From the IMG/VR virus record IMGVR_UViG_3300045936_000212, positions 1,206-65,205 of that record: DNA of 64,000 nt; one strand, given 5' to 3'. The translations under genes were made by a program, and so were the position numbers. Source of the stretch: a virus (lineage: Duplodnaviria > Caudoviricetes). The notes beneath the pieces are model-generated. The model was not told where the DNA came from. It was given only the letters and a program-made list of their open reading frames with translations, and did not search any database. Below, in pieces: positions 6,251 through 49,352 of this stretch (its first letter is position 1; each line of letters begins with the position of its first letter).

Positions 6251-7684
6251 ATGCTGGGCCTTCCCGCAGTTCGGCGCGTCTTGGATGCATTCGCGCAGCC
6301 CTTCCGCGCGCCCGTCGCCAGATCGGACGTGCCGGCAACCACGCCGGCACCGCCCGCTGGCTATATCCTGCCGTTGGGCGGCGGATACATTCCGGCGAGC
6401 TGGCCGGTCAATTTCTGGCAGATGGGCTATGACCCGCTGTCCCACGATGCGTCGTCGGTCGTCTACGGCTGCATCGCCGCCTACGCGCAGACCGTCGCGA
6501 TGTGCCCTCCCGCGCATTGGCGCTCGACCGGCGACGGCGGTCGCGAGATGGTCACCACCTCGGCGCTGTCGCGGATCCTGCGCAAGCCGAATTTCTATCA
6601 GTCGCCATCGGACTTCTTCCTCTACCTGACCGACTGTCTCTACCGGCAGGGCGAGGCCTTCGGCCTGGCGCTGCGCAACGAGCGGTTCGAGATCAACCAG
6701 ATCCACCTGATGAACCCGCGGCTCTGTTTTGCGCGGGTCGCGGTCACCGGGGATCTTTTCTACACGCTGGGCGGCAACGAGATCGTCGAGCGGATGTTCG
6801 AGGGCGAACGCTACCTCCTCGACGCCGTGCCGGCCCGCGATGTCCTGCACGTCCGCCTGCCCGATCCCCGCAACCCGCTGAAGGGCTGCCCACCGCTCGA
6901 GGCCTCGCTGATCGAGCGTGCCGCCTCGGAGGCGATGGTGCAGCAGGCGCTCGCCTACGCCAACAATCAGGGTCGCCCGTCGGGGGTGCTGTCGACCGAG
7001 GCGGATCTCAACGAGGAGCAGGTCACGTTTCTGCGGATGCTCTGGGACAAGCAGACCAAGGGTGTCAACCAGGGCGGCACGCCGATCCTGACCAACGGCC
7101 TCAAGTGGGAGTCGGCGGTCATGAACTCGCGCGACGCCCAGATCGCCGAGTTTTTGAAGTTGTCGGATGCGCGCATCGCCACCGCCTATCGGGTGCCGCA
7201 GGCACTTCTCAGCCTAGAGCCGCAGGGGCCGCAAACCTCGACCGAGGCCCTGATGCAGTACTGGGTCGCCACCGGTCTGGGGTTTGCCGCCAACCATATC
7301 GAGGAAGCGTTCGGGCTGCTGTTCGGCCTCGCCGGCCAGCCGATCGAATACATGGAAATGGATTTCGAGGCGCTGCTCCGAGCCAACTTCCGAGATCGCA
7401 TGGAAGGTCTCGCCCGCGCGGTGCAGGGCGGCATCTTTGCTCCCAACGAAGCCCGCGCCCGCGAAGAGCTGCCGAAGAAGCCCTACGGCGACGAACCCCG
7501 CGTGCAGCAACAGGTCGTGCCGCTGAGCGCCTGGGCGCAAACGCCGCCCGCCACCCCCGCCCCGGATGCGCCCCCGTCCTCACCGCCAGCCGGAGATGAA
7601 CCGAATGTCGACGGCAGCACCCAGGAGCAATTCGATTGGGTCCGGGCCATCAACGATGCCGCCGATCGATATCGGGCCGCGTGA
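6251..7684 (+). CDS. Portal protein, HK97 family
   Basis: [59 protein letters not shown] motifs. Confidence 0.95.
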
Positions 7685-9035
7685 GGTCTTCGCCGACGCG
7701 CTGGGTCGGGTGCTGGAGCAGGTCAGGCAGGAGTTCCGGGTAGACCGGCAACTGATGCAGGCCGAGTACGGTCGCACCGTCGCCGAGCTCCGCGCCGAAG
7801 TTTCCGAGCTGAAACTGAAGCTCAACGAGATCATGGCCGAGCGGCTGGCGCAGCTGCATGACGGCAAGGACGGCGAGCCGGGGCCGCAAGGTGATCCAGG
7901 CCCGCAAGGTGAAAAAGGCGAGCCGGGCGCGGCCGGCGACCAAGGGGTTCCGGGTGAGCGCGGTGAGCCGGGCGAGCAGGGGCCTCCCGGCGAGAAGGGT
8001 GAGCCGGGCGAGCGCGGCGAGGCTGGAGAGCGCGGTGAACCGGGCGAGGCTATCAGAGGTGCACCGGGCGAGACGGGCGATCCTGGGCCTCCAGGCGCCG
8101 CCGGAGAGCGCGGTGAACCGGGCGCCCCGGGTGAACGCGGCGAGCCAGGATCTCCGGGTGAGCGCGGTGAGCCTGGCGAGCAGGGGCCGCAAGGGGTTGC
8201 GGGCGAGCGCGGCGAGCGCGGCGAGCCGGGCGCACCGGGTGAGCCGGGGTCTCCGGGCGAGCGCGGTGAGCCGGGCCAGGAGGGGCCGTCGGGGCCACCG
8301 GGTGAGAAAGGTGATCCAGGGGATCCGGGCGAGCGCGGTGAGCGCGGGGAGCCGGGTGACCGCGGCGAGCCGGGCGAGAAAGGTGATCCGGGCCAGGAGG
8401 GCATGCAAGGCCAACCGGGGGAGCCGGGGCCTCCGGGCGAGCGCGGCGAGCCGGGGATACCGGGAGAACGCGGCGAGGCGGGGGTCGCTGGGGAACGCGG
8501 CGATCCCGGCCCAGCGGGCGAGCGCGGCGAGGCCGGGCCTCCCGGCAAGCTGGCCGGCGTCAAGCCCTGGGCGCGCGGTGTTCACTACGAGAGCGATGTC
8601 GTGACGCATCTCGGCTCGACCTGGTGCGCGCTGCGCGACACCGGAGAGGAACCGCCACACGGCGACTGGCTCCTCGTCGCCGAGCGCGGCCAGGACGCTC
8701 CCGTGGGCGAGGTCAGAGGCAGCTATGACCCGACAGCGAAATACCGGCGGTTCGACATCGTCGCCTACAACGGCTCCGAGTGGCGGGCAAAGGTCGATGA
8801 CCCCGGACAACTCCCCGGAGACGGGTGGGCGTTATCTGCACAGAAAGGCGACCGCGGCCGACGCGGCGAACCCGGCGAGCAAGGCCCGCCAGGACCGCAA
8901 GGGAAGGCGGGGGCGACGATCAGCGAGTGGCTGACCGAAGGCTACCGCGCCATCCCGGTGCTGAGCGACGGCACGCTGGGGCCGGCTCTCAATCTGCGCG
9001 AGTTCTTTGAGGCCTACCATGGCGAGGCGCGCTGA
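7656..9035 (+). CDS. Collagen triple-helix repeat protein with C-terminal Trp-rich beta (CBM5/12-like) modules; putative head fibre
   Basis: N-terminal coiled coil, long Gly-X-Y run (about 7860-8550), then [15 protein letters not shown] and [16 protein letters not shown] repeats. Confidence 0.8.
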
Positions 9036-33807: not shown

Positions 33808-33883
33808 TGGCAGGGGTGACCGGAATCGAACCGGCGAATACGGGCTGCACAGGCCCGCGCGTCTACCACTCCGCCACACCCCC
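33808..33883 (-). tRNA. tRNA with GTG (His) anticodon, atypical (no G-1, G1-U72, G73, C37)
   Basis: GGGGGTG-TG-GCGGAGTGGTAGACGC-G-CGGGC-CTGTGCA-GCCCG-TATTC-GCCGG-TTCGATT-CCGGT-CACCCCT-G-CCA; 76 nt with encoded CCA. Confidence 0.88.
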
Positions 33884-33887
33884 TTTC

Positions 33888-33963
33888 TGGTGGATCCGAC
33901 CGGACTCGAACCGGCACATCGGCGCGTTGCAAGCGTCGGCGTCTTCCTTTCCGCCACGGACCC
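33888..33963 (-). tRNA. tRNA with GCA (Cys) anticodon and Ala-type acceptor (G3-U70, A73)
   Basis: GGGTCCG-TG-GCGGAAAGGAAGACGC-C-GACGC-TTGCAAC-GCGCC-GATGT-GCCGG-TTCGAGT-CCGGT-CGGATCC-A-CCA; 76 nt. Confidence 0.88.
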
Positions 33964-41504: not shown

Positions 41505-41831
41505 TCATGGGGTGCGCCAGTGCACCGTCAGCTTCGGCTCCTTGATGATCCGGTGGGTGTCGAGCCGCACCACCGCCGCCTCCCTGACCGTGCACCAGAC
41601 CGGCCAGCCCCGATCCATCGCCCAGGCGATCTGCGGGTTGGCGACGCGCGGGATGTAGCCGACCGGGATGCCGTCGACGACGCAGGCGACCGCCCTCGGA
41701 TCCTCGCGGTTCTGCGGCTCGCGCTGCAGCGCCACGACATCGCCCGGCTGCAGCTTGGCGACGAGGCTGCGGGCCGGCGTCGGCTTGAAGCGGATGCCGA
41801 CGATGACGGTGTCGAGCGAGACTTCAGCCAC
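41505..41831 (-). CDS. HIRAN-domain protein
   Basis: IVGIRF..LQREPQNREDPRAVAC..VGYIPR. Confidence 0.85.
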   Translation of the reverse strand: MAEVSLDTVIVGIRFKPTPARSLVAKLQPGDVVALQREPQNREDPRAVACVVDGIPVGYIPRVANPQIAWAMDRGWPVWCTVREAAVVRLDTHRIIKEPKLTVHWRTP

Positions 41832-41997
41832 GGGCCCCCTCCTCGAGGCAGCGGTCGATCGTCCGCTCGATCTGCACGATCTGGTCGGCGAGCTGGCCGC
41901 GCCGCCGGTCGGTAAAGGGCAGGGCGCGCATCCGGCGCACCAGTTCGTCGCGATAGGCGGTCAGCGCCTCGGCCGGTTGTTTGCCGCCATCAGGCAT
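41824..41997 (-). CDS. Small hypothetical protein
   Basis: GAGGAG RBS; 57 aa. Confidence 0.55.
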   Translation of the reverse strand: MPDGGKQPAEALTAYRDELVRRMRALPFTDRRRGQLADQIVQIERTIDRCLEEGARG

Positions 41998-42436
41998 GCG
42001 CCGGCTCCTCGAATTGCAGCGGCAGCTCGGCCGGCTTGATCTGCTGATACGGGTTGGCGCGCGGGTCGTTTGGCCGATGGCGTTCCAGCCATTGCAGATG
42101 CGCCACCCGGTAGCTGTATTCGGCGGCGGTGATCGGTTGCGCATAGGCCCAGTGCCCGACGGGGCGCGGGGTCTGGAGCGAGGGATCGGCGAGCGCCGCC
42201 ACCGCCTCGTCCGCCCGCAAGGTGCCGTCGCCGCAGCGGCGCCAGACCCCGAGCCGGTCGAGCAGCCGTTCGGGCGGCACTTCGCGGCCGGCGATCTCGG
42301 CGCGCGGGAAGACCGAGAGCGCGCCGCGGTCGAGCCGGTTCTCCGGATCGGCCGGGTCGTGGTCGCACAACCAGAGCCGCGCCGGGACGAGCGGGGCACC
42401 CCGGCGCAGCCGCAACAGAAAGTACCGTGGCGTCAT
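41990..42436 (-). CDS. Conserved phage hypothetical protein
   Basis: YFLLRLRRGAPLVPARLW..PITAAEY..HRPNDPRANP; start set after the repeat array. Confidence 0.7.
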   Translation of the reverse strand: MTPRYFLLRLRRGAPLVPARLWLCDHDPADPENRLDRGALSVFPRAEIAGREVPPERLLDRLGVWRRCGDGTLRADEAVAALADPSLQTPRPVGHWAYAQPITAAEYSYRVAHLQWLERHRPNDPRANPYQQIKPAELPLQFEEPAHA

Positions 42437-42450
42437 TGCCCTGTTCCCCC

Positions 42451-42962
42451 GCCTGCCATGCCTTGCCGTGCCCTGCTCAGCCGAGACTTGCCGAACCATG
42501 CCTGCCGCGCCGGGCCTCTCGCAGCCGAGCGACGCGACGCCCTGCCAAACCGCGCCTGCCGTGTCCGCCCTGGGCTCGCCACGTTCGAGCCATGCCTGCC
42601 GCGCCCCGACAAACCCCGCCTTGCCACGCCGTGCCGTGCCCAGCCTTGCCTGCCTTGCCTGCCGAGCGTTGCCGGGCGTTGCCGGGCGTTGCCGCGCCCT
42701 GCCGTGCCGTGCCGTGCCTTGCCTGCCTTGCCTGCCTTGCCATGCCTCGCCCAGTCTTGCCCGGTCGTGCCAAGCCCTGCCTTGCCTGCCGCGCCATGCC
42801 CCGCCGAGCCGGGCTTTGCCGCGCCCGACCCGGCCGTGCCCTGCCGGCCAATCGGTGCCGTGCCCGGCCCTGCCTGACCGCGGCGTGCTAAGCCGTGCCC
42901 CGCCTGCCATGCCATGCCCGGCCGAACCATGCCTGTCCGGGCCAAACCGAGCCGCGCCTGCC
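42451..42962 (-). ncRNA. Array A of GGCA+(GGY-NN)n units, putative guide-RNA array
   Basis: Delimiter GCCTGCC (+) at 42451, 42500, 42554, 42594, 42648, 42657, 42721, 42730, 42784, (42843 variant), 42902, 42956; spacings mostly 4+5n nt. The RNA role is inferred. Confidence 0.75.
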
Positions 42963-42980
42963 ATGCGAAAAGGTTCGCCC

Positions 42981-43415
42981 TCACGCTGCTTCTTGATCCG
43001 GCGGTTCAAGCAGCGCGAAAGCGTCGATCGAGCGGAACAACCCGGCCAATTCACGGTCGAGGTGCCGGTGCCGATCGCGCCAGCGGATGAGTTCGGTCAG
43101 CGCCTCTCTGGCGGCGAGCCGGCGCATCTCCTCCGAGGACATCGTCGCGCCCATGTCGCGATAACCGCCGCCGACACTGCGGTCGATCATCAGGCTGATG
43201 GTTTGCCGGTGGCCGACATCGTCGACGACATGGATCGCGATCAACTGGCGCGCCTGGATCAGGCGGTAGCGCTCGCCTGCGACGGCATCGTCCCAGACAA
43301 AAGCGCGATAGAGCGCCGAGTCCGGGTTCTGGCGTGCCCAGTCGATGGCGATCGACGGGTAAATCCGCCCATCGGTTGCCCGCAACGCGACGAGTTCCGC
43401 GCCGATCCGGGTCAT
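42981..43415 (-). CDS. Partner protein of the RAMP-like gene (144 aa)
   Basis: ARQNPDSALYRAFVWDDAVAGERYRLIQARQLI; ATGA-coupled to 43412-44230. Confidence 0.8.
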   Translation of the reverse strand: MTRIGAELVALRATDGRIYPSIAIDWARQNPDSALYRAFVWDDAVAGERYRLIQARQLIAIHVVDDVGHRQTISLMIDRSVGGGYRDMGATMSSEEMRRLAAREALTELIRWRDRHRHLDRELAGLFRSIDAFALLEPPDQEAA

Positions 43416-44230
43416 GCGACGATCTCGAAAAGCCCCCAACCGAGCCCATTGGAATTCGGGCTGTTGGGGCGACCCTCCCCGACGCCGACCTGAAGCCCGG
43501 CGCGGGCGATCAGATTGACGACATCGCCGGCGCTGAACTGATCCGCATCCCAGCGGACCCTCAGCATCAACTCCCACTCGTGCCAGATCGGGCGCCAGCG
43601 CAGGTCGGCGCCACCGTTCGCATTGCGGCCCCAGCCTTTGTGGATTTCGGGCTGGCCCTTGACGATGCGCACGAGCGGCGTGCCGTCTTCGGCATCGAAC
43701 CCGTCCGCCTCGATAAAGATCGTCAGCTTGGCGTGGGTCATTTTGTAGCCGACGAGCCGGCAGGCATCGATCGCCGCATTGCGGAAGGCCGGTGCCGGGA
43801 TGCCGTGCCAGCCCTCGCGGCTGATGTGCTGCGCCGCCTTGTAGCCGGCCTCGAAGTCGCGCGCCTCGCGCTTCTTGCGGGACCGCGCCTGCGTTCCGGC
43901 GCGCTGCGTCTCCTCCATCTGCGCCTGCGCCTTGGCCGAGAATTTGTGCTGCACATAGGGCGAGATCCCGCGCAGATGCAGGACGGCGGTCTGCATCCGC
44001 GGCGGGCTGATCACCACCTTCAGGTCGCCCGCCTTGACCGCCTCGATCTCGGCCCGCGTGACCGCCGGGATCTTGCCGCGCAGATCGACCGTCTCCTCGC
44101 CGACCGGCACCGTCGGGGTCGAGCGTCGCGTCCGCCGTGGCGGCGCTGCCGGGGTCGGAGCGGCGGCGCCATTGGTGCGCCGGGGGCGCCCGCGCGGCTT
44201 CGGGGCCGGCGGGTCGAATTGCATCGTCAT
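43412..44230 (-). CDS. Stand-alone Cas7/RAMP-like protein
   Basis: GGAGG RBS; TAVLHLRGISPYVQH, HGIPAPAFRNAAIDAC, RPIWHEWELMLRVRW, and C-terminal Gly-rich loop GLQVGVGEGRP..GLGWGLFEI; N-terminal PRGRP AT-hook-like motif. Confidence 0.75.
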   Translation of the reverse strand: MTMQFDPPAPKPRGRPRRTNGAAAPTPAAPPRRTRRSTPTVPVGEETVDLRGKIPAVTRAEIEAVKAGDLKVVISPPRMQTAVLHLRGISPYVQHKFSAKAQAQMEETQRAGTQARSRKKREARDFEAGYKAAQHISREGWHGIPAPAFRNAAIDACRLVGYKMTHAKLTIFIEADGFDAEDGTPLVRIVKGQPEIHKGWGRNANGGADLRWRPIWHEWELMLRVRWDADQFSAGDVVNLIARAGLQVGVGEGRPNSPNSNGLGWGLFEIVA

Positions 44231-44341
44231 CGGTTCCTCCACACCAAAAAGCCCCGGCTGCGACTGCCGTCGGGGTGCCGATGGCTCGGGCTGTCGCTCG
44301 GCGCGAACGTGCCGCGAACAGCCCGGCCAGGTCTGACGAGG

Positions 44342-44575
44342 CTTGTGTCTGGCCTGTGTCTAAAACCCGGCGCAAAACCCCTTTTCGTTCCGGTTTTGGC
44401 GCTGTCGGAGAACGCGCCGGAACTCGCTAAGCCAGTGGAAATACTGGCGTTTTTCGATTGCGCCGGGGAAGCGCCGGCTGTTGCCGAAGCAGGTATGCAT
44501 CGCCCTCTAACCCGTTCTCTTATCATGTGGTTTTCGCTCGTCGCCCGCGCCCTTGTGTCAGCCCTGTGTCTGAAA
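44342..44575. other. Putative attP region with paired integrase arm-type repeats
   Basis: CTTGTGTCTGGCCTGTGTCTAAAA (44342-44365) and CTTGTGTCAGCCCTGTGTCTGAAA (44552-44575), 21/24 identical, at the integrase 3' end. Confidence 0.65.
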
Positions 44576-45809
44576 TGCGGGGTTGTGCCGCCGCCGCCGG
44601 CTCAACCAGACCCCCATCCTCAACCGCAACGGGTAAAATACCGGTGGGCAAAACACCCTCCAACCCGCCGGTCTCTAACCCACCGGTCTGGCGGAACCGC
44701 GCCTGCCGCTCTTCGAGCCGCGCCAAGGCGTCGGCGACATCCTGGGTCGTCGTCTGGGCGTAGCGCATCGTGGTGCGGATATCGCTGTGCGCCATCGCCT
44801 GCTGCACCCGGCCCAACGGCGCGACGGCCGCCAGCCTTGTGCCAAAGGTATGCCGCAGATCGTGAAAGCGCAGCGTCGGCAACCCGATGGCGCGGCGCGC
44901 CTTGACCCAGTCGCGGCGGAAATTGCCGCCATCGGCGACCAAGGGATAGCGCTCGCCCCGCTTCCGGCCGGGGGCGGGGTGACGGCAGAGATAAGTGAAG
45001 ACGTATGCCTCGTGCCGGCCGCGCTCCAGACTGAGGAGCGCCCGCATCCCCTGGGTCAGCGGTAACAGATGCTGCTTGCCGCCCGGCTTTTTCGACTTGG
45101 TGCGAAAGGTGATAAACCCGAGATCCCAGTCGATCTGCTCCCATCGCAGCGCCAAGGCGTTCTCCCGGCGCACCCCCGACAGGATGGCAAAGCGGATGAC
45201 CGGGCGGAAATCCTCGCGCATCGCCGCCAGCAGCATCTCCTCCTTCTCGCCCTCCGGCAGGATCGTCTGCCGGTTGTCGGGTTCCTCCAGCCACAACGAG
45301 GGGCCCTTGGTGCTGCGCCACTTCAACTCGGGCACCTTGAACCCCCAGGCGGCGCAGGCATTGACGATCGAGCGCAGATGCGCCGTCTCGCGGTTGACGC
45401 TGGCATTAGAGAGGCTGGCCCGGCGACCGGCGACAAAACTCGCCAGCCGCCCGAAATCCAACGACGACAGCAAGACCTCCGCCCCGAGCTCGTCGATCAG
45501 CGTGCGGTTGTGGATCTGCGCCTGCCGCGCCGTCTTCCAGTATTGCGACACATCGGTCCAGTGCCGCACCACCGCCGCCTTTAGCGTGATGTCGGGTTTC
45601 TCCCCGGTGTATTTGCCGAGGAGCGCCGCCGCGCGGGTTTGCGCCGCGAGGGTTTCGGCGATGTCCCGGTCGCCTGTGCCAAGGCACTTGCGAAATCGAG
45701 GATAGCCCCGGACGGTGAAACTCTCGTAGTAGACCTCGCCGCGGAGCTGGACGAGGCTCGTCCGCCCGCCTTTTGGTTTTGCGCCTCCTCTTGGTTTTGG
45801 TGCTGCCAT
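44523..45809 (-). CDS. int: Tyrosine integrase
   Basis: SGVRRENALALRW (R), TKSK (K), FHDLRHTFGT (HxxR), MAHSDIRTTMRY (H, Y). Confidence 0.95.
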   Translation of the reverse strand: MAAPKPRGGAKPKGGRTSLVQLRGEVYYESFTVRGYPRFRKCLGTGDRDIAETLAAQTRAAALLGKYTGEKPDITLKAAVVRHWTDVSQYWKTARQAQIHNRTLIDELGAEVLLSSLDFGRLASFVAGRRASLSNASVNRETAHLRSIVNACAAWGFKVPELKWRSTKGPSLWLEEPDNRQTILPEGEKEEMLLAAMREDFRPVIRFAILSGVRRENALALRWEQIDWDLGFITFRTKSKKPGGKQHLLPLTQGMRALLSLERGRHEAYVFTYLCRHPAPGRKRGERYPLVADGGNFRRDWVKARRAIGLPTLRFHDLRHTFGTRLAAVAPLGRVQQAMAHSDIRTTMRYAQTTTQDVADALARLEERQARFRQTGGLETGGLEGVLPTGILPVAVEDGGLVEPAAAAQPRISDTGLTQGRGRRAKTT

Positions 45810-46057
45810 CCGCCCAACTCCTGTTTTTGAATGTACGAGATGAGATCGTTCGGTTTGAACCGCCGGGTCTTGCCGATCTTGACCCAGCGCAGCCGCCCGG
45901 CGGCAATCTCGTCGACCAGCGTCTGACGGCTGATGCCGAGCGCCTTCGCCGCCTCGCCCTGGCGGATCAAAAGCCGGCCGCGGGCAATCTGCTGCAGCCG
46001 TTCCTCCAAATCGAGGCTGAGGCTGTCGACCCTCAGGGTCGGGGGATCAGCGCTCAT
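45581..46057 (-). CDS. xis: Excisionase-like HTH protein
   Basis: LLIRQGEAAKALGISRQTLVDEIAAGRLRWVKIGKTRRF; immediately upstream of int and overlapping it. Confidence 0.8.
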   Translation of the reverse strand: MSADPPTLRVDSLSLDLEERLQQIARGRLLIRQGEAAKALGISRQTLVDEIAAGRLRWVKIGKTRRFKPNDLISYIQKQELGGWQHQNQEEAQNQKAGGRASSSSAARSTTRVSPSGAILDFASALAQATGTSPKPSRRKPARRRSSANTPGRNPTSR

Positions 46058-46086
46058 TCAAACTCCTGCCCGCCAACTCCTGCCCG

Positions 46087-46723
46087 GCCTGCCAAACCAG
46101 GCCAAACCATGCCTTGCCGTGCCCTGCCTCAGACCGAGCCCTGCCGAGCCGCGCCTGCCGTGCCCTGCCATGCCCTGCCGAGCCGTGCCGAGCCGCGCCT
46201 GCCGCGCCCTGCCGGGGCAACCCAAGCCCCGCGCTGCCTTGCCGCGCCTGCCGTGCCCTGCCATGCCAAGCCGGGCCGTGCCAAACCGCGCCTGCCGGGC
46301 CATGCCGTGCCACGCCAACCCCCGTCCCGCCTAGCCTGCCGCGCCGCGCCTGCCCGGCGATGCCAAGCCATGCCGGTCCAGGCCCTGCGGTTGCTTGCCT
46401 TGCCAAGCCCTGCCTGCCCGCCGTGCCGAGCCGAGCCGAGCCTTGCCCTGCCTCACCGTGCCGAGCCTGCGGTGCCGAGCCCTGCGGTGCCAAGCCGGGG
46501 CACGCCCAGCCTGCCTGCCGAACCGAGCCGCGCCGAGTCGAGCCTTGCCTTGCCGGGCCAAGCCTGCGGTGCCGCGCCCTGCCATGCCATGCTCTGCCGG
46601 GGCAGGCCTTGCCGCGCCTGCCGTGCCGGGCCAAGCCACGCGCTGCCGGGCCGGGCCTTTTTGCCACGCCTGCCCTGCCTGGCCCTGCCAGGCGACGCCA
46701 AACCGAGCCGCGCCGAGCCTGCC
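46087..46723 (-). ncRNA. Array B of GGCA+(GGY-NN)n units, putative guide-RNA array
   Basis: Delimiters at 46087, 46153, 46197, 46246, 46290, 46334, 46348, 46412, 46465, 46509/46513, 46562, 46616, 46668, 46717; most spacings 44, 49, 54 or 64 nt. The RNA role is inferred. Confidence 0.75.
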
Positions 46724-46813
46724 CTGCCAGCAGAATGCGGATGGCTTCGTGTTTCGTCTGGGCCATGCCGGGGCCTCGGGGGGGTTCCACCGGCCCCGAG
46801 CCTACCGCCGGCT

Positions 46814-46852
46814 TTGCAGATCGTGCAAGAGGGGAGTTCGTAACTTTTACAA
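46814..46852. promoter_or_regulatory. Tandem operators / leftward promoter upstream of array B
   Basis: TTGCAGATCGTGCAA (46814-46828) and TCGTAACTTTTACAA (46838-46852). Confidence 0.6.
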
Positions 46853-46860
46853 GAGGCGGG

Positions 46861-47022
46861 TTAGCAGTCGCCCCGGTGCCGCTTCTCCCACTCGATCACC
46901 GACTTGACAAAGTCGGCCCGCAGCTGGTCGGCGTCAAACACCGACGCGCCGCCGTCCTGGCGGGTGACGCAGTCGTCAAACAGGTCTTTGATCTCTTCGA
47001 ACACGTCCTCGACGGTCCCCAT
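46861..47022 (-). CDS. 53-aa acidic protein (not in ORF track)
   Basis: MGTVEDVFEEIKDLFDDCVTRQDGGASVFDADQLRADFVKSVIEWEKRHRGDC*; typical codon usage. Confidence 0.6.
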   Translation of the reverse strand: MGTVEDVFEEIKDLFDDCVTRQDGGASVFDADQLRADFVKSVIEWEKRHRGDC

Positions 47023-47254
47023 GATGTGTGCCCCCACACTTGCTCTTCTTTGGCCCGACCCTGCCGCGCACGGCGGCGCCCCGGTCGAGGGCTGCGCGCA
47101 CTCTCATCGCCTGTCGGCCCTCCCGTTCCCAAGGGGCAGTCACGCTAACCTTATGGGTGTATTCGGAAAGTATGTCGTCGCTTATCGCGCGTTTATTGCA
47201 TCATGAAGGCGCGGCATGCCCCGGCGTCAAGTGAGGTTTTTTATCATTCCGGAT

Positions 47255-47851
47255 TCATCTGTCTCGATCTGGTTTGTCGCCGTCGGCGCTGACCGTATCG
47301 GCCGGCTCCTCCTTGGCGTCAATGGCGGTCACCTTGCCGCCGCCTCGCTCGACAACGATGTCCGGTTTGCGCCGCAAGGTGCGCCCGAAATGCTCGACCG
47401 TCTCGGCCAGCATCTCGCCCTGCACCAGGGCGTCCCTGACCAGCGTGATGGCGTCGGCGATCTGCGTCTCAAAGGTTTTGATCTGCACCTGAATGGTGCC
47501 CTGAAAACTCTTGAACGCGGCATCGAGGGTGGAGAGCGTCGCCAGCGCCGTCTGCAGCGAGCCGGCGAGACCAAACTCCTCCTCGGTCGAAACCGCCGTC
47601 TCCTGTAGTTCGCGCGGCACGTTCGGATCGCGCCCGAGCAGGTCGGAGACCGAACATCGGTAGGTCTTCGACAGCGCCATCAAGACATGCGCAGTGATGG
47701 TCGCCCGGTTGGTCTCGATGTTGCTGACGCGGGTCGCGGGCCAGTTGTTCAACTCTTCGACCTTGGTCTGGCTCAGACCGCGAAACTGCCGCCATTCCTT
47801 AAAGTAATTGGGAAAAGGTTCGCGCGCGGCGACACGCCGGCTGCCGCTCAT
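47255..47851 (-). CDS. CI-like XRE repressor
   Basis: NYFKEWRQFRGLSQTKVEE..TRVSNIETNR..SVSDLL; divergent from a Cro-like gene; no S24 peptidase domain seen. Confidence 0.8.
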   Translation of the reverse strand: MSGSRRVAAREPFPNYFKEWRQFRGLSQTKVEELNNWPATRVSNIETNRATITAHVLMALSKTYRCSVSDLLGRDPNVPRELQETAVSTEEEFGLAGSLQTALATLSTLDAAFKSFQGTIQVQIKTFETQIADAITLVRDALVQGEMLAETVEHFGRTLRRKPDIVVERGGGKVTAIDAKEEPADTVSADGDKPDRDR

Positions 47852-48156
47852 GGGGGTTCTCCTGTTTCAACGCCCGGATGAACCCGGCGTAGTCTTGACA
47901 GGTTATCCGTTGCATCCCCTGTAACAGCAAGGGATTTTATGTATCGCCCATGTCACCCCTACGGTAACGCGGTGGTTGCGCCGGGGCGCGGCTTGTAAAC
48001 CTGCATCGACCGGCTTGCAGATCGGCGCATGGCTAACGGTTAACGCACATCAACCGGCTTGCAGATAACCGTAAGAGGCTGACCGGCGGTGACTTGTAAA
48101 ATTTGCGATGCTCGGGGCTTGACGGGTCTGCAAAACCGGCGCGAGGATGCACCGCC
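47852..48156. promoter_or_regulatory. Divergent immunity promoter/operator region
   Basis: AT-richer intergenic DNA; TTGACA at about 47896; operator-like TTGTAAAATTTGCGA (48094-48108) and TTGACGGGTCTGCAA (48119-48133); CCGGCTTGCAGAT twice. Confidence 0.65.
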
Positions 48157-48489
48157 ATGCCCCCCGGCCTCGCCCCCCTCGAGCCCCATCCGCTGCGCGC
48201 CTACCGCGAGCGCCGCGGGCTCTCGATCAGCGAGTTGGCGCGCCGGGCCGGGCTGTCGGTCGCCACCGTCAGCCGGGTCGAAGCCGGCGGCGTCGATCTG
48301 CCGACCATGGCCGTCATCATCAAACTGGCGATGGCCTGCGAGGGCGAAGTCTCCGAACTCGACATCGTGCGCTACTCCTTTGCCCGCTCGGTCGGCGTCG
48401 TGCTGCCGCTGCGGGCTCCCATGACATCGGATTTCACCTGGAACTGGGTCCGACCGAGTACTGAGGGCGCTACCCCAGTCTTGGTCTGA
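48157..48489 (+). CDS. Cro-like XRE HTH protein
   Basis: HPLRAYRERRGLSISELARRAGLSVATVSRVEAG. Confidence 0.85.
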   Translation: MPPGLAPLEPHPLRAYRERRGLSISELARRAGLSVATVSRVEAGGVDLPTMAVIIKLAMACEGEVSELDIVRYSFARSVGVVLPLRAPMTSDFTWNWVRPSTEGATPVLV

Positions 48490-48490
48490 C

Positions 48491-48534
48491 ACGGCGCGGT
48501 GCCGGGAGGCTCTGCCCGGAGCCGCGCCGTTTTT
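48491..48534 (+). terminator. Intrinsic terminator after the Cro-like gene
   Basis: ACGGCGCGG...CCGCGCCGT followed by TTTT. Confidence 0.7.
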
Positions 48535-48656
48535 GCGAGGAGCGTTGGGGAAAGCCGCCGACCGGCGCCCTCCGACGGTTGACCGGGGGGAGCTGCGAAC
48601 GCCGGTAAGCGCCGGCCGGCGGCTGTCACGTCAAACCCGAGGGGGAGAACACTCAC

Positions 48657-49352
48657 ATGGCCGAAGCGTTGCGCGATGCGGCAGGACCCAACCTGACACG
48701 CGCCACCTTTATCGAGTTCTGTACGAAGCACGACGAGATAGAGCGCGAACTCGCCGATGTCGCCGAGACCAAGCGCAGCTTGAACAAGCGGCGCAAGGAC
48801 ATCCGCAAAAACATGGGCGCCGCCGGCATCGATATCGACATGTTCGACCGGATGCGCGACGACCTCGAACTGACCCCGGAGGAGCGCGAAGCCCGGACCC
48901 GCGATCTGGCGCAATACATGGCCTGGATGCAGGCCCCGGCCGGGTACCAGGCGTCAATGGATTTCCAGTCCGACGACCCCGGCGAGCGCGCCTACAACGT
49001 CCACGAGCTGCACGCCATCGACGGCGAGGGCTTTGACGCCGGCAAGACCGGCCGGCGCGCGGACTCCAACCCCTACCGCCCCGGCACCGAGGGGCACGCC
49101 CGCTGGCACAACGCCTGGAACCGCGGCCAGCAGCTCGCGGTCGAGGCGATGGGCGGCGGCGCGCCCGCGCCTGCGGCCGAGCCGAACGGCCATGCCGAGG
49201 CGCCGGAACCCGAGGCGGTGCCCGATCCGCCGCAGGGCAAGCGCCGCCCAGGTCGGCCGCGCAAACCGCACCCGCCGGTCGGGGAGAACGGCGACCCGCC
49301 GCCGATGGCGGCTAGCGACCAGCACACAGAAACACCGCCGGCTGTCCACTAA
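48657..49352 (+). CDS. GapR (DUF2312)-like DNA-binding protein fused to an Rmf-like motif
   Basis: IERELADVAETKRSLNKRRKDIRKNMGAAGID..ELTPEERE..LAQYM, then GFDAGKTG..NPY..WHNAWNRG, then RPGRPRK. Confidence 0.6.
   Translation: MAEALRDAAGPNLTRATFIEFCTKHDEIERELADVAETKRSLNKRRKDIRKNMGAAGIDIDMFDRMRDDLELTPEEREARTRDLAQYMAWMQAPAGYQASMDFQSDDPGERAYNVHELHAIDGEGFDAGKTGRRADSNPYRPGTEGHARWHNAWNRGQQLAVEAMGGGAPAPAAEPNGHAEAPEPEAVPDPPQGKRRPGRPRKPHPPVGENGDPPPMAASDQHTETPPAVH

What the first reader, a model, noticed from the sequence alone, without database searches (positions are those of the whole stretch)
42451..42962. Array A: about 9 units with 5-nt phasing and information confined to dinucleotides
The first unit (minus strand from 42962) reads GGCA GGC-GC GGC-TC GGT-TT GGC-CC GGA-CA GGC-AT GGT-TC GGC-CG GGC-AT GGC-AT GGCA, so NN = GC TC TT CC CA AT TC CG AT AT. 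Delimiter spacings are 49, 54, 40, 54, 9, 64, 9, 54, 59, 59, 54; all but one equal 4+5n. Units differ in their NN strings while keeping phase, unlike a slippage microsatellite. Period 5 does not fit a coding constraint. Distal units (42500-42600) are more degenerate, suggesting polarity or ageing (inference).
Basis: seen in the sequence. Interest (0 to 1): 0.85.

Follow-up and report, generated by a model that had tools for sequence, protein, structure and literature searches.

The report
Phage VIPR guide-RNA array (GGCNN repeats)
The 5-base repeat tract is one of two guide-RNA arrays of a phage-borne VIPR system, a recently described CRISPR-like RNA-guided DNA-silencing system, so it is real and functional-looking but belongs to a kind already reported in 2026.

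Summary
Window 42451-42962 (minus strand) is a phased GGCNN array: GGC is nearly fixed (0.6-0.8 bit) and NN is near-random (1.9 bit). It is cut into about 9 units of 8-12 pentamers by GGCA 4-mers. A second array lies at 46093-46726 on the same strand.

Between the arrays sits a 276-aa gene. Its family profile matches PDB 36pp "SUSP1 Vipr protein" (E = 9.7e-15). Its AlphaFold model (pLDDT 91) matches Csm/Cmr-type CRISPR RAMP chains. In 86 loci found through this protein alone, 79 carry same-strand GGYNN arrays.

This fits the VIPR system (bioRxiv 10.64898/2026.04.26.720920): Vipr protein plus vrRNAs of 9-16 GGY/NN repeats, whose NN dinucleotides pair with target DNA, skipping every third base.

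The locus is a tail-less "staggered" variant. GGCA makes up 223 of 233 short units across relatives. The accessory gene is a conserved 144-aa protein of unknown fold.

I found no natural target above chance, and there is no direct RNA evidence. Verdict: a new member of a known kind.

The parts
42451..42962 (-). Array A: downstream vrRNA array. About 9 full units of 8-12 GGCNN pentamers, plus two 9-nt mini-units, separated by GGCA 4-mers.
   Evidence: It starts 22 nt after the stop of the 144-aa gene and ends 15 nt before the ATG of the next gene (42436).
42984..43415 (-). 144-aa accessory gene (vap-like), of unknown fold. Its ATG overlaps the vipr stop codon (ATGA).
   Evidence: phrog_15946 (E = 2.6e-11); no Pfam family; no PDB relative. 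Atlas neighbours are viral hypothetical proteins. A homolog sits directly after vipr in 37 of 50 genomic and 22 of 36 viral loci, and in Mycobacterium phage Donkeykong as gp50 (E = 5e-8).
43415..44242 (-). vipr gene. RAMP-fold core of about 200 aa (43415-44017), with a Pro/Arg-rich N-terminal extension if the first ATG is used.
   Evidence: The profile of 64 homologs matches PDB 36pp 'SUSP1 Vipr protein' at E = 9.7e-15. The AF2 model has pLDDT 91.4. Foldseek's top hits are Csm/Cmr and type VII complex chains. Also phrog_4652.
44526..46057 (-). Tyrosine integrase (44526-45809) and HTH_17 excisionase-like gene (45584-46057). They lie between Array B and vipr. This is context and not a conserved VIPR part.
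   Evidence: By tblastn, the window's integrase matches 1 of 86 protein-found relatives and its excisionase 2 of 86.
46093..46726 (-). Array B: upstream vrRNA array on the same strand, with about 12 in-phase runs of 6 or more pentamers.
   Evidence: The parse gives 121 pentamers and 17 tetramers, with entropy 0.52/0.53/0.73 bit (GGC) against 1.85/1.85 bit (NN).

Best explanation
Array A and its twin Array B are the guide-RNA (vrRNA) arrays of a VIPR (Viral Interference Programmable Repeat) system carried in the early/lysogeny region of a temperate, 66% GC phage.

Shown here: a Vipr-family RAMP protein and a conserved 144-aa accessory gene lie between two same-strand, non-coding GGCNN arrays, and this protein-array linkage holds across relatives.

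Inferred by homology to the characterised SUSP1 and P. fulva systems: the minus strand is transcribed. One Vipr protomer binds each pentamer and sequesters GGY. The exposed NN dinucleotides pair with double-stranded target DNA, skipping every third target base (xNN). The resulting filament blocks transcription of a competing phage, satellite or prophage gene.

Inferred from anatomy: each run of about 8-12 pentamers is one guide. The GGCA 4-mer is a terminal GGCAG pentamer sharing its last G with the first GGC of the next guide. That matches the 'staggered, 1-nt overlapping' array of the preprint's Fig. S18 legend. There is no structured 3' tail.
For: (1) Protein identity. The family profile (64 sequences) hits PDB 36pp 'SUSP1 Vipr protein' at E = 9.7e-15 over profile 25-215 and chain 1-187; the next hit is at E = 0.38. 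The single sequence hits the same chain at the G-loop (E = 0.036).

(2) Fold. The AF2 model has pLDDT 91.4 and pTM 0.86. Foldseek gives 20 PDB chains at E <= 1e-3; those listed (17) are all chains of type III (Csm/Cmr) or type VII CRISPR effector complexes. Further down the list (E 3.5e-3 and 5.2e-3) are the two entries whose titles name the subunit, Csm3 (5yjd_B) and Cmr6 (4w8v_B).

(3) RNA-contact residues reported for SUSP1 Vipr (10.64898/2026.04.26.720927, section 5). H17, R138 and R179 align to H24, R142 and R183 of the window core. D177 aligns to E181.

(4) Array anatomy matches the published vrRNA definition of 9-16 YNNGG repeats with conserved GGY and hypervariable NN.

(5) Linkage, tested in both directions. 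Of 120 IMG/VR loci found by the DNA pattern alone, 40 encode a homolog of the 276-aa protein and 22 a homolog of the 144-aa protein. Of 86 loci found by the protein alone, 79 have a same-strand array, 78 of them within 1.5 kb. That is 109 same-strand arrays (32,132 bp) against 4 opposite-strand ones (230 bp).

(6) No self-target above background: the best is 16/20 under skip 1, against up to 15/20 under the control skips. The preprint likewise reports no self-targeting hits passing its threshold.

(7) Near-identical phages L213 and L214 keep six units and differ in their distal units.
Against: There is no direct evidence of transcription or processing. The only RNA data are short soil metatranscriptome contigs at 99% identity or more, covering 42919-43076 and five other pieces. 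They carry no strand information, and DNA carry-over cannot be excluded.

No natural target was found above chance. SUSP1 W178, which stacks on G2, is Gly here.

Foldseek TM-scores are moderate (0.36-0.55) with large rmsd. The preprint says only the ribozyme-interspersed and single-vrRNA architectures were confirmed by sRNA-seq, so the staggered form was not.

The 1-nt skip rule was tested only for other VIPR types. Some units are degenerate (GGY intact in 6-7 of 8-10 pentamers) and may be dead. An integrase and an excisionase separate Array B from vipr, unlike in relatives.
Confidence: 0.87

Rival explanations
1. The arrays are VIPR-type RNAs but act mainly as decoys or hijackers and not as this phage's own guides. 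They would redirect a competitor's Vipr, or are partly decayed remnants.
For: The abstract of 10.64898/2026.10.15.759431 reports stand-alone vrRNAs that redirect another element's VIPR machinery. Several units here are degenerate. No target was found.
Against: An apparently intact vipr and accessory gene lie between the arrays. The same gene-array layout is conserved in 78 of 86 relatives.
Confidence: 0.07
2. It is a double-stranded-DNA feature: a periodic protein-binding platform (iteron, centromere or arm-site-like array next to the integrase), or a G-quadruplex-prone tract.
For: The position next to integrase and excisionase. The 10-bp sub-period reported by TRF. The minus strand is 45% G.
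Against: Integrase is absent from nearly all related loci, while Vipr is always present. Arrays are co-oriented with vipr in 109 of 113 cases, which fits a transcribed element. The published system is RNA-based.
Confidence: 0.03
3. It is a neutral, slippage-driven degenerate pentanucleotide microsatellite with no function.
For: Pure GGCNN microsatellites do exist among the 120 pattern hits: many loci have no 4-mers and no Vipr. Units are duplicated, with TRF periods 44-97.
Against: GGC is conserved while NN is near-random. The delimiter is specific, GGCA in 223 of 233 cases. 231 of 284 spacings are congruent to 4 mod 5. Linkage and co-orientation with one protein family are tight.
Confidence: 0.02
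4. It is a protein-coding low-complexity region, for example ORF 42433-42984 or the 354-aa ORF 41990-43054.
For: All three minus-strand frames are open across the tract.
Against: Openness is mechanical: within a GGCNN repeat a stop can arise only as TAG, when NN is TA. Period 5 rotates the reading frame every unit, and each GGCA shifts it again. The true downstream gene starts at 42436. In phage Donkeykong the same kind of tract is annotated as a CDS but shows period-5 autocorrelation of 0.63.
Confidence: 0.01

Closest known systems
Type II VIPR systems of Escherichia phage SUSP1 and a Pseudomonas fulva prophage (bioRxiv 10.64898/2026.04.26.720920; structures in 10.64898/2026.04.26.720927; PDB 36pp)
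   Same: A homologous Vipr protein (profile E = 9.7e-15). GGY/NN pentamer guides of about 10 repeats on the vipr strand, in intergenic tracts on both sides of a two-gene operon. Phage-borne, with no self-targets.
   Different: The single sequence is only weakly similar to SUSP1 Vipr (E = 0.036). There is no conserved 3' tail or pseudoknot after each repeat tract (junction logo). About 20 candidate guides in two long arrays, against the four vrRNAs the preprint describes for SUSP1. The accessory protein has no detectable relative in the PDB. The G2-stacking Trp is replaced by Gly.
'Staggered vrRNA arrays' (Fig. S18 legend of 10.64898/2026.04.26.720920; legend text only was seen)
   Same: [quoted passage not shown] This is what a GGCAG pentamer sharing its G with the next GGC looks like.
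   Different: I could not see the figure or the type table, so equivalence is inferred. The preprint does not report experimental confirmation for this architecture.
Class 1 CRISPR backbone RAMPs (Csm3/Cmr4-type subunits) with crRNA
   Same: The same fold class. One protomer per fixed RNA step, with a thumb that flips bases out of the guide.
   Different: A 5-nt step instead of 6-nt. Guides are internally repetitive and are not unique spacers between long repeats. TRF found no repeat-spacer array in the window, and the 10 neighbouring ORFs scanned against Pfam and PHROGs matched no Cas family; the rest of the window was not scanned.
TRAP binding sites in the Bacillus trp leader (recalled from memory, not tested)
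   Same: Triplets spaced by 2-nt gaps, about 11 per site, read by an oligomeric protein on RNA.
   Different: The triplet is (G/U)AG, the protein is unrelated, and it has no guide function. I considered it early and dropped it once Vipr was identified.

Membership tests
VIPR system | A Vipr protein homologous to characterised Vipr | tested here: met
   The profile of alignment A1 matches PDB 36pp_D 'SUSP1 Vipr protein' at E = 9.7e-15 and 57.6 bits, nearly full length.
VIPR system | RAMP fold (RRM core, glycine-rich loop, thumb) | tested here: met
   AF2 model with pLDDT 91.4. Foldseek's best hits are Csm/Cmr and type VII complex chains at probability 0.99-1.00. The G-loop motif aligns to the SUSP1 G-loop. 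The thumb was not delineated separately.
VIPR system | Conservation of GGY-contacting residues (SUSP1 H17, R138, D177, W178, R179) | tested here: inconclusive
   H, R and R are conserved. D is replaced by E, and W by G. R142 and R183 are invariant in 64 homologs.
VIPR system | Intergenic tandem GGY/NN pentamers, 9-16 per guide, flanking vipr on its strand | tested here: met
   units of 8-12 pentamers. Across relatives, 79 of 86 protein-found loci have same-strand arrays.
VIPR system | An adjacent vap accessory gene | tested here: met
   The 144-aa gene is coupled to vipr by an ATGA overlap. It is conserved after vipr in 59 of 86 loci. Which of vap1-6 it is, if any, could not be tested because supplements are closed.
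VIPR system | vrRNAs expressed, processed and bound by Vipr | not testable with these tools
   Only short metatranscriptome contigs without strand information were available.
VIPR system | NN strings match targets in competing mobile elements under the 1-nt skip rule | tested here: inconclusive
   Six guides were scanned in IMG/VR and one in metagenomes, and 111 and 149 guides were tested against held loci. Nothing exceeded chance. The searches were exact-match only and capped.
VIPR type II architecture | A conserved structured 3' tail (pseudoknot) after each repeat tract | tested here: not met
   The junction logo over 302 junctions shows no conserved sequence beyond GGCAGGC.
Ribozyme-interspersed VIPR arrays | Hammerhead ribozymes between guides | tested here: not met
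   The Rfam gathering-threshold scan of the window finds only two tRNAs.
CRISPR-Cas | A repeat-spacer array (repeats of about 23-50 nt) with cas genes | tested here: not met
   TRF lists no such array. The 10 neighbouring ORFs scanned against Pfam and PHROGs matched no Cas family. The rest of the window was not scanned for cas genes.

The most novel reading that the evidence does not exclude
This widespread clade, which includes cultured Mycobacterium, Gordonia and 'Cy-LDV1' phages, may make guides by a mechanism different from the characterised type II systems. Long tail-less arrays would be measured into guides of about 10 pentamers at a GGCAG/GGC one-base-overlap junction, with no structured handle. 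The G-loop lacks the guanine-stacking Trp, and the partner is a 144-aa protein of unknown fold. In addition, at least one guide (unit 1 of Array A) may target the host chromosome and not a rival phage: it has a 20/20 match just upstream of an SPFH/Band-7 gene in L248.
Probability: 0.2. Interest if true: 0.6.

Novelty: new member of a known kind. Interest (0 to 1): 0.4.

Why it matters
It shows that a reader working from raw sequence alone can recover the signature of a VIPR guide array: phase-locked GGY with free NN.

It also adds a well-resolved example of the least-characterised architecture, the staggered and tail-less form, with about 20 candidate guides embedded in a lysogeny module.

The comparative work gives testable specifics. 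The guide boundary is GGCA(G). The modal unit is 10 pentamers. A 144-aa accessory protein of unknown fold is conserved across phyla.

The same architecture occurs in cultured Mycobacterium smegmatis and Gordonia phages. In one of these (Donkeykong) the array is currently annotated as a protein-coding gene. Those phages offer a ready laboratory system for the processing and targeting questions that the preprints leave open for this architecture.

Tried and rejected
Early ideas, set aside once Vipr was found: TRAP-like RNA sites, Rho rut sites on the opposite strand, G-quadruplexes, iterons or centromere repeats, and integrase arm sites. All were recalled from memory, and none was tested beyond strand and linkage statistics.

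Single-sequence AF2 of the 276-aa ORF gave an unusable model (pLDDT 42.6).

The 144-aa protein has no Pfam family and no PDB relative. The Atlas gives only unnamed viral clusters. Only 12 database homologs were found by word search.

The promoter and terminator scan of 41800-48700 found 0 promoter-like sites and 4 terminator-like sites, against 4.9 expected. It is uninformative.

Target search:
- Self-scan: best 16/20 under skip 1, against up to 15/20 under the control skips.
- IMG/VR 16-base seeds for guides A1, A7, B9 and the third unit of Array A gave 14, 10, 9 and 17 hits. Extension over the flanking NN was at chance. There was one 19/20 match for A1 and two for the third unit, against about 0.7 and 0.9 expected.
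- 18-base patterns for B1 and A3 gave 0 hits.
- Local all-against-all test. In one search the apparent skip-1 excess came from loci fetched with skip-1 seeds, which is circular. In one search, with those loci removed, 149 unique guides against 1.82 Mb gave 0 perfect sites under any rule and 1, 1, 2, 2 one-mismatch sites for skips 0-3. A mild skip-1 excess at 2-3 mismatches is what a period-3 pattern should give against coding DNA.
- Metagenome scan of the full 20-base A1 pattern: one hit (L248), in a bacterial chromosome fragment between an amidase gene and a Band_7 gene. No other guide converges on it. My rough scaling from the seed-hit rate predicts about one chance hit, so it is not evidence.

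RNA: two soil metatranscriptome runs hold small shares of the stretch (0.10 and 0.05). When laid, six contigs of 151-223 nt match at 99% or more, but they cover the arrays only at 42919-42962. They show neither transcription nor strand.

Paper supplements are closed. Table S3 and data S3/S4 of the VIPR preprint may already list this clade, its type and its vap class. I could not check, so I give no type assignment.

What I saw of the papers:
- 10.64898/2026.04.26.720920: outline, all of Results, Discussion, Methods part 1 and sections 26-27, and legend passages.
- 10.64898/2026.04.26.720927: abstract and sections 5-6.
- 10.64898/2026.10.15.759431: abstract and outline only.
- 10.64898/2026.10.21.760802: passages found by term search.

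Full report
WHAT IS THERE. The window is bases 1206-65205 of a 65,205-bp IMG/VR virus record. The record is classed as linear, and CheckV estimates it as 100% complete. Window GC content is 66%.

On the minus strand, 42451-42962 is a tract with strong period-5 structure. Autocorrelation is 0.53 at lag 5 and 0.51 at lag 10, against 0.21-0.35 at lags 1-4 and 6-8. GGC..GGC occurs 44 times, against 1.9 (maximum 9) in 1000 shuffles.

A parse of 42433-42984 gives 97 pentamers, 12 tetramers, 2 hexamers and 1 heptamer. Entropy is 0.70/0.59/0.80 bit at G-G-C and 1.86/1.95 bit at the two N positions. The tetramers are GGCA, with one GGCC.

GGCAGGC occurs 46 times in the window against 23.5 +/- 4.9 expected. 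Of these, 24 lie on the minus strand inside this array and a second one.

The second array (46093-46726, same strand) has 121 pentamers and 17 tetramers and the same entropy profile. These two are the only such tracts in the record.

CONTEXT. The gene order on the minus strand is:
- a cI-like HTH_3 gene (47258-47851)
- Array B
- an HTH_17 excisionase-like gene (45584-46057)
- a tyrosine integrase (44526-45809)
- a 276-aa ORF (43415-44242, phrog_4652)
- a 144-aa ORF (42984-43415, phrog_15946), whose ATG overlaps the preceding stop codon
- Array A
- a 148-aa ORF starting at 42436
- HIRAN and DUF6283 genes, and an exonuclease-like gene.

Array A therefore fills an intergenic gap inside a co-directional early/lysogeny operon. 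Rfam finds only two tRNAs in the window.

IDENTIFICATION. [quoted passage not shown]

Its Results describe VIPR systems as follows:
- a small RAMP-fold protein, Vipr
- an accessory gene, vap
- vrRNAs of 9-16 YNNGG repeats, with GGY conserved and NN hypervariable
- vrRNAs encoded in long intergenic tracts flanking vipr
- systems found mostly in proviruses and phages.

The NN dinucleotides pair with double-stranded DNA under a '1-nt skip' rule (xNN) and silence transcription.

The companion structural preprint (10.64898/2026.04.26.720927) shows one protomer per repeat in a helical filament. GGY is sequestered by residues H17, R138, D177, W178 and R179.

Two later preprints extend the biology and recover VIPR-like period-5 arrays at scale (99 clusters with a dominant 5-nt entropy period).

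TESTS OF MEMBERSHIP.
- Sequence. The core of the 276-aa ORF has 2,995 database relatives at E <= 1e-3. All are unnamed and without Pfam domains. A profile of 64 of them (alignment A1) matches PDB 36pp 'SUSP1 Vipr protein' at E = 9.7e-15 over nearly its whole length, with the next hit at E = 0.38. The single sequence finds the same chain at the G-loop (E = 0.036).
- Fold. With A1, AlphaFold2 gives pLDDT 91.4 and pTM 0.86; without the alignment it gives 42.6. Foldseek's best PDB matches are chains of type III Csm/Cmr and type VII effector complexes (E from 1.4e-4, probability 0.99-1.00, TM 0.36-0.55). Further down the list are entries whose titles name Csm3 and Cmr6.
- Contact residues. H17, R138 and R179 are conserved. 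D177 is Glu and W178 is Gly.

LINKAGE, TESTED IN BOTH DIRECTIONS.
- From DNA to protein. By tblastn, 40 of the 120 encode a homolog of the 276-aa protein next to the array, 22 a homolog of the 144-aa protein, and 1 a match to the integrase. The rest include plain microsatellites.
- From protein to DNA. I examined 50 genome loci and 36 viral loci that were found only through Vipr peptides. Of these 86, 79 have a same-strand GGYNN array and 78 have one within 1.5 kb. There are 109 same-strand arrays (32,132 bp) against 4 small opposite-strand ones (230 bp). The array is only downstream in 59 loci, only upstream in 10, and on both sides in 9. The 144-aa gene follows vipr in 59 of the 86.

The closest Vipr relatives in named genomes are alphaproteobacterial MAGs (Vineibacter 74%, Aestuariivirga 64%, Bradyrhizobium 60%). 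The family also spans Planctomycetota, Cyanobacteria, Verrucomicrobiota, Gemmatimonadota and others.

ARCHITECTURE. I pooled 106 Vipr-linked arrays (28,988 nt; this set includes pattern-selected loci and the two window arrays).
- 4-nt units flanked by in-phase pentamers are GGCA in 223 of 233 cases.
- Among the 687 GGYNG pentamers followed by GGY, which could give a 4-mer by losing one G, only 221 have N = A.
- 231 of 284 GGCAGGY spacings are congruent to 4 mod 5.
- The mode is 54 nt, with most spacings between 39 and 74. Mini-units of 9 nt recur 15 times.
- The junction logo over 302 junctions shows nothing conserved beyond GGCAGGC, apart from a purine preference at the first N of neighbouring pentamers.

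My reading, which is an inference: each guide ends in a GGCAG pentamer whose last G is also the first G of the next guide. This fits the legend of the preprint's Fig. S18 ('staggered' arrays, '1 nt overlapping positions'). I could not see the figure. The preprint states that only the ribozyme-interspersed and single-vrRNA forms were confirmed by sRNA-seq.

There is no type II-like tail here and no hammerhead ribozyme.

TURNOVER. L213 and L214 are about 96% identical. Their first six downstream units are identical and their distal units differ. Their upstream arrays are 273 and 451 bp.

TARGETS. No guide matches the window itself above background.

Exact-match scans of IMG/VR with 16- to 18-base skip-1 patterns from six guides gave 0-17 hits each. 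Extension over the flanking NN was at chance.

An all-against-all test of 149 unique guides against the 1.82 Mb of loci I held gave no perfect site under any skip rule. An earlier run was confounded by loci fetched with skip-1 seeds.

The full 20-base pattern of unit 1 has one exact match in the metagenome collection (L248 3858-3886). It lies just upstream of an SPFH/Band_7 gene, overlapping a TATAAT-like box and a Shine-Dalgarno-like stretch and ending 7 nt before the ATG, on an ordinary bacterial chromosome fragment. No other guide converges there. By my rough scaling about one such hit is expected by chance, so natural targets remain unknown.

EXPRESSION. Two soil metatranscriptome runs hold six short contigs at 99% identity or more. 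One runs from the 3' end of the 144-aa gene into the first unit of Array A (42919-43076). Contigs give no strand information, and DNA carry-over cannot be excluded.

CULTURED RELATIVES. By tblastn, Vipr homologs occur in 33 GenBank phage records: Cyanophage Cy-LDV1 (56% identity), 27 Mycobacterium records and 5 Gordonia records (about 30-35%).
- Cy-LDV1 has arrays on both sides of the gene that follows vipr, next to a putative excisionase.
- Gordonia phage ODay has an array directly after gp19.
- In Mycobacterium phage Donkeykong the annotated CDS gp48 coincides with a staggered GGCNN/GGCA array (lag-5 autocorrelation 0.63), upstream of gp49 (the Vipr homolog) and gp50, which is related to the 144-aa protein at E = 5e-8.

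VERDICT. The element is a vrRNA array of a VIPR system. The kind was described in 2026 preprints, so it is not new as a kind. This locus is a clear member of the staggered, tail-less architecture, which has not been characterised experimentally. It also has an unusual insertion of integrase and excisionase between the upstream array and vipr.

Noticed in passing
window 46093-46726 (minus strand): A second, larger GGCNN/GGCA array (121 pentamers, 17 tetramers) lies upstream of the excisionase-like gene. It belongs to the same VIPR locus.
   Followed up: yes
window 44526-46057: A tyrosine integrase and an HTH_17 excisionase-like gene sit between Array B and vipr. The two ORFs overlap by about 230 nt as called. 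Among 86 protein-found relatives, the window's integrase has 1 tblastn match and its excisionase 2, so the placement inside the VIPR locus looks peculiar to this phage. (Cy-LDV1 and Donkeykong do have an annotated excisionase a little downstream.)
   Followed up: partly
L266 1956-2342 (Mycobacterium phage Donkeykong gp48): An annotated 'hypothetical protein' CDS coincides with a period-5 GGCNN/GGCA array directly upstream of the Vipr homolog gp49. The CDS call is probably spurious.
   Followed up: partly
L128 (Cyanophage Cy-LDV1 record), whole 6.6-kb stretch: The stretch is 67% GC. From memory, the recorded host (Cylindrospermopsis raciborskii) has a much lower GC content, so the host assignment of this third-party assembly may be doubtful.
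   Followed up: no
window 42724-42736 and 42651-42663; also 15 of 284 spacings in relatives: Recurrent 9-nt mini-units (one pentamer plus GGCA) occur between full-length units. They are too short to be guides and remain unexplained.
   Followed up: partly
L248 3858-3886: An exact 20/20 skip-1 match of Array A unit 1 lies just upstream of an SPFH/Band_7 gene, on a bacterial chromosome fragment. The count is at chance level. From memory, SPFH proteins HflK/HflC influence the lambda lysis-lysogeny decision, so the gene class is suggestive.
   Followed up: partly
window 7935-8537: Long arrays with periods of 9, 18 and 27 nt (collagen-like Gly-X-Y coding repeats by their period) lie inside ORF 7566-9035. 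This is probably a tail-fibre-type protein.
   Followed up: no
window 33808-33963 (minus strand): Adjacent tRNA-His and tRNA-Cys genes are carried by the phage.
   Followed up: no
window core residue 182 of the vipr product (G-loop): The Trp that stacks on the second guanine in SUSP1 Vipr is Gly in this subclade (G-x-G-E-G-R-P), while more distant relatives keep Trp or Phe. This suggests a different way of holding G2.
   Followed up: partly
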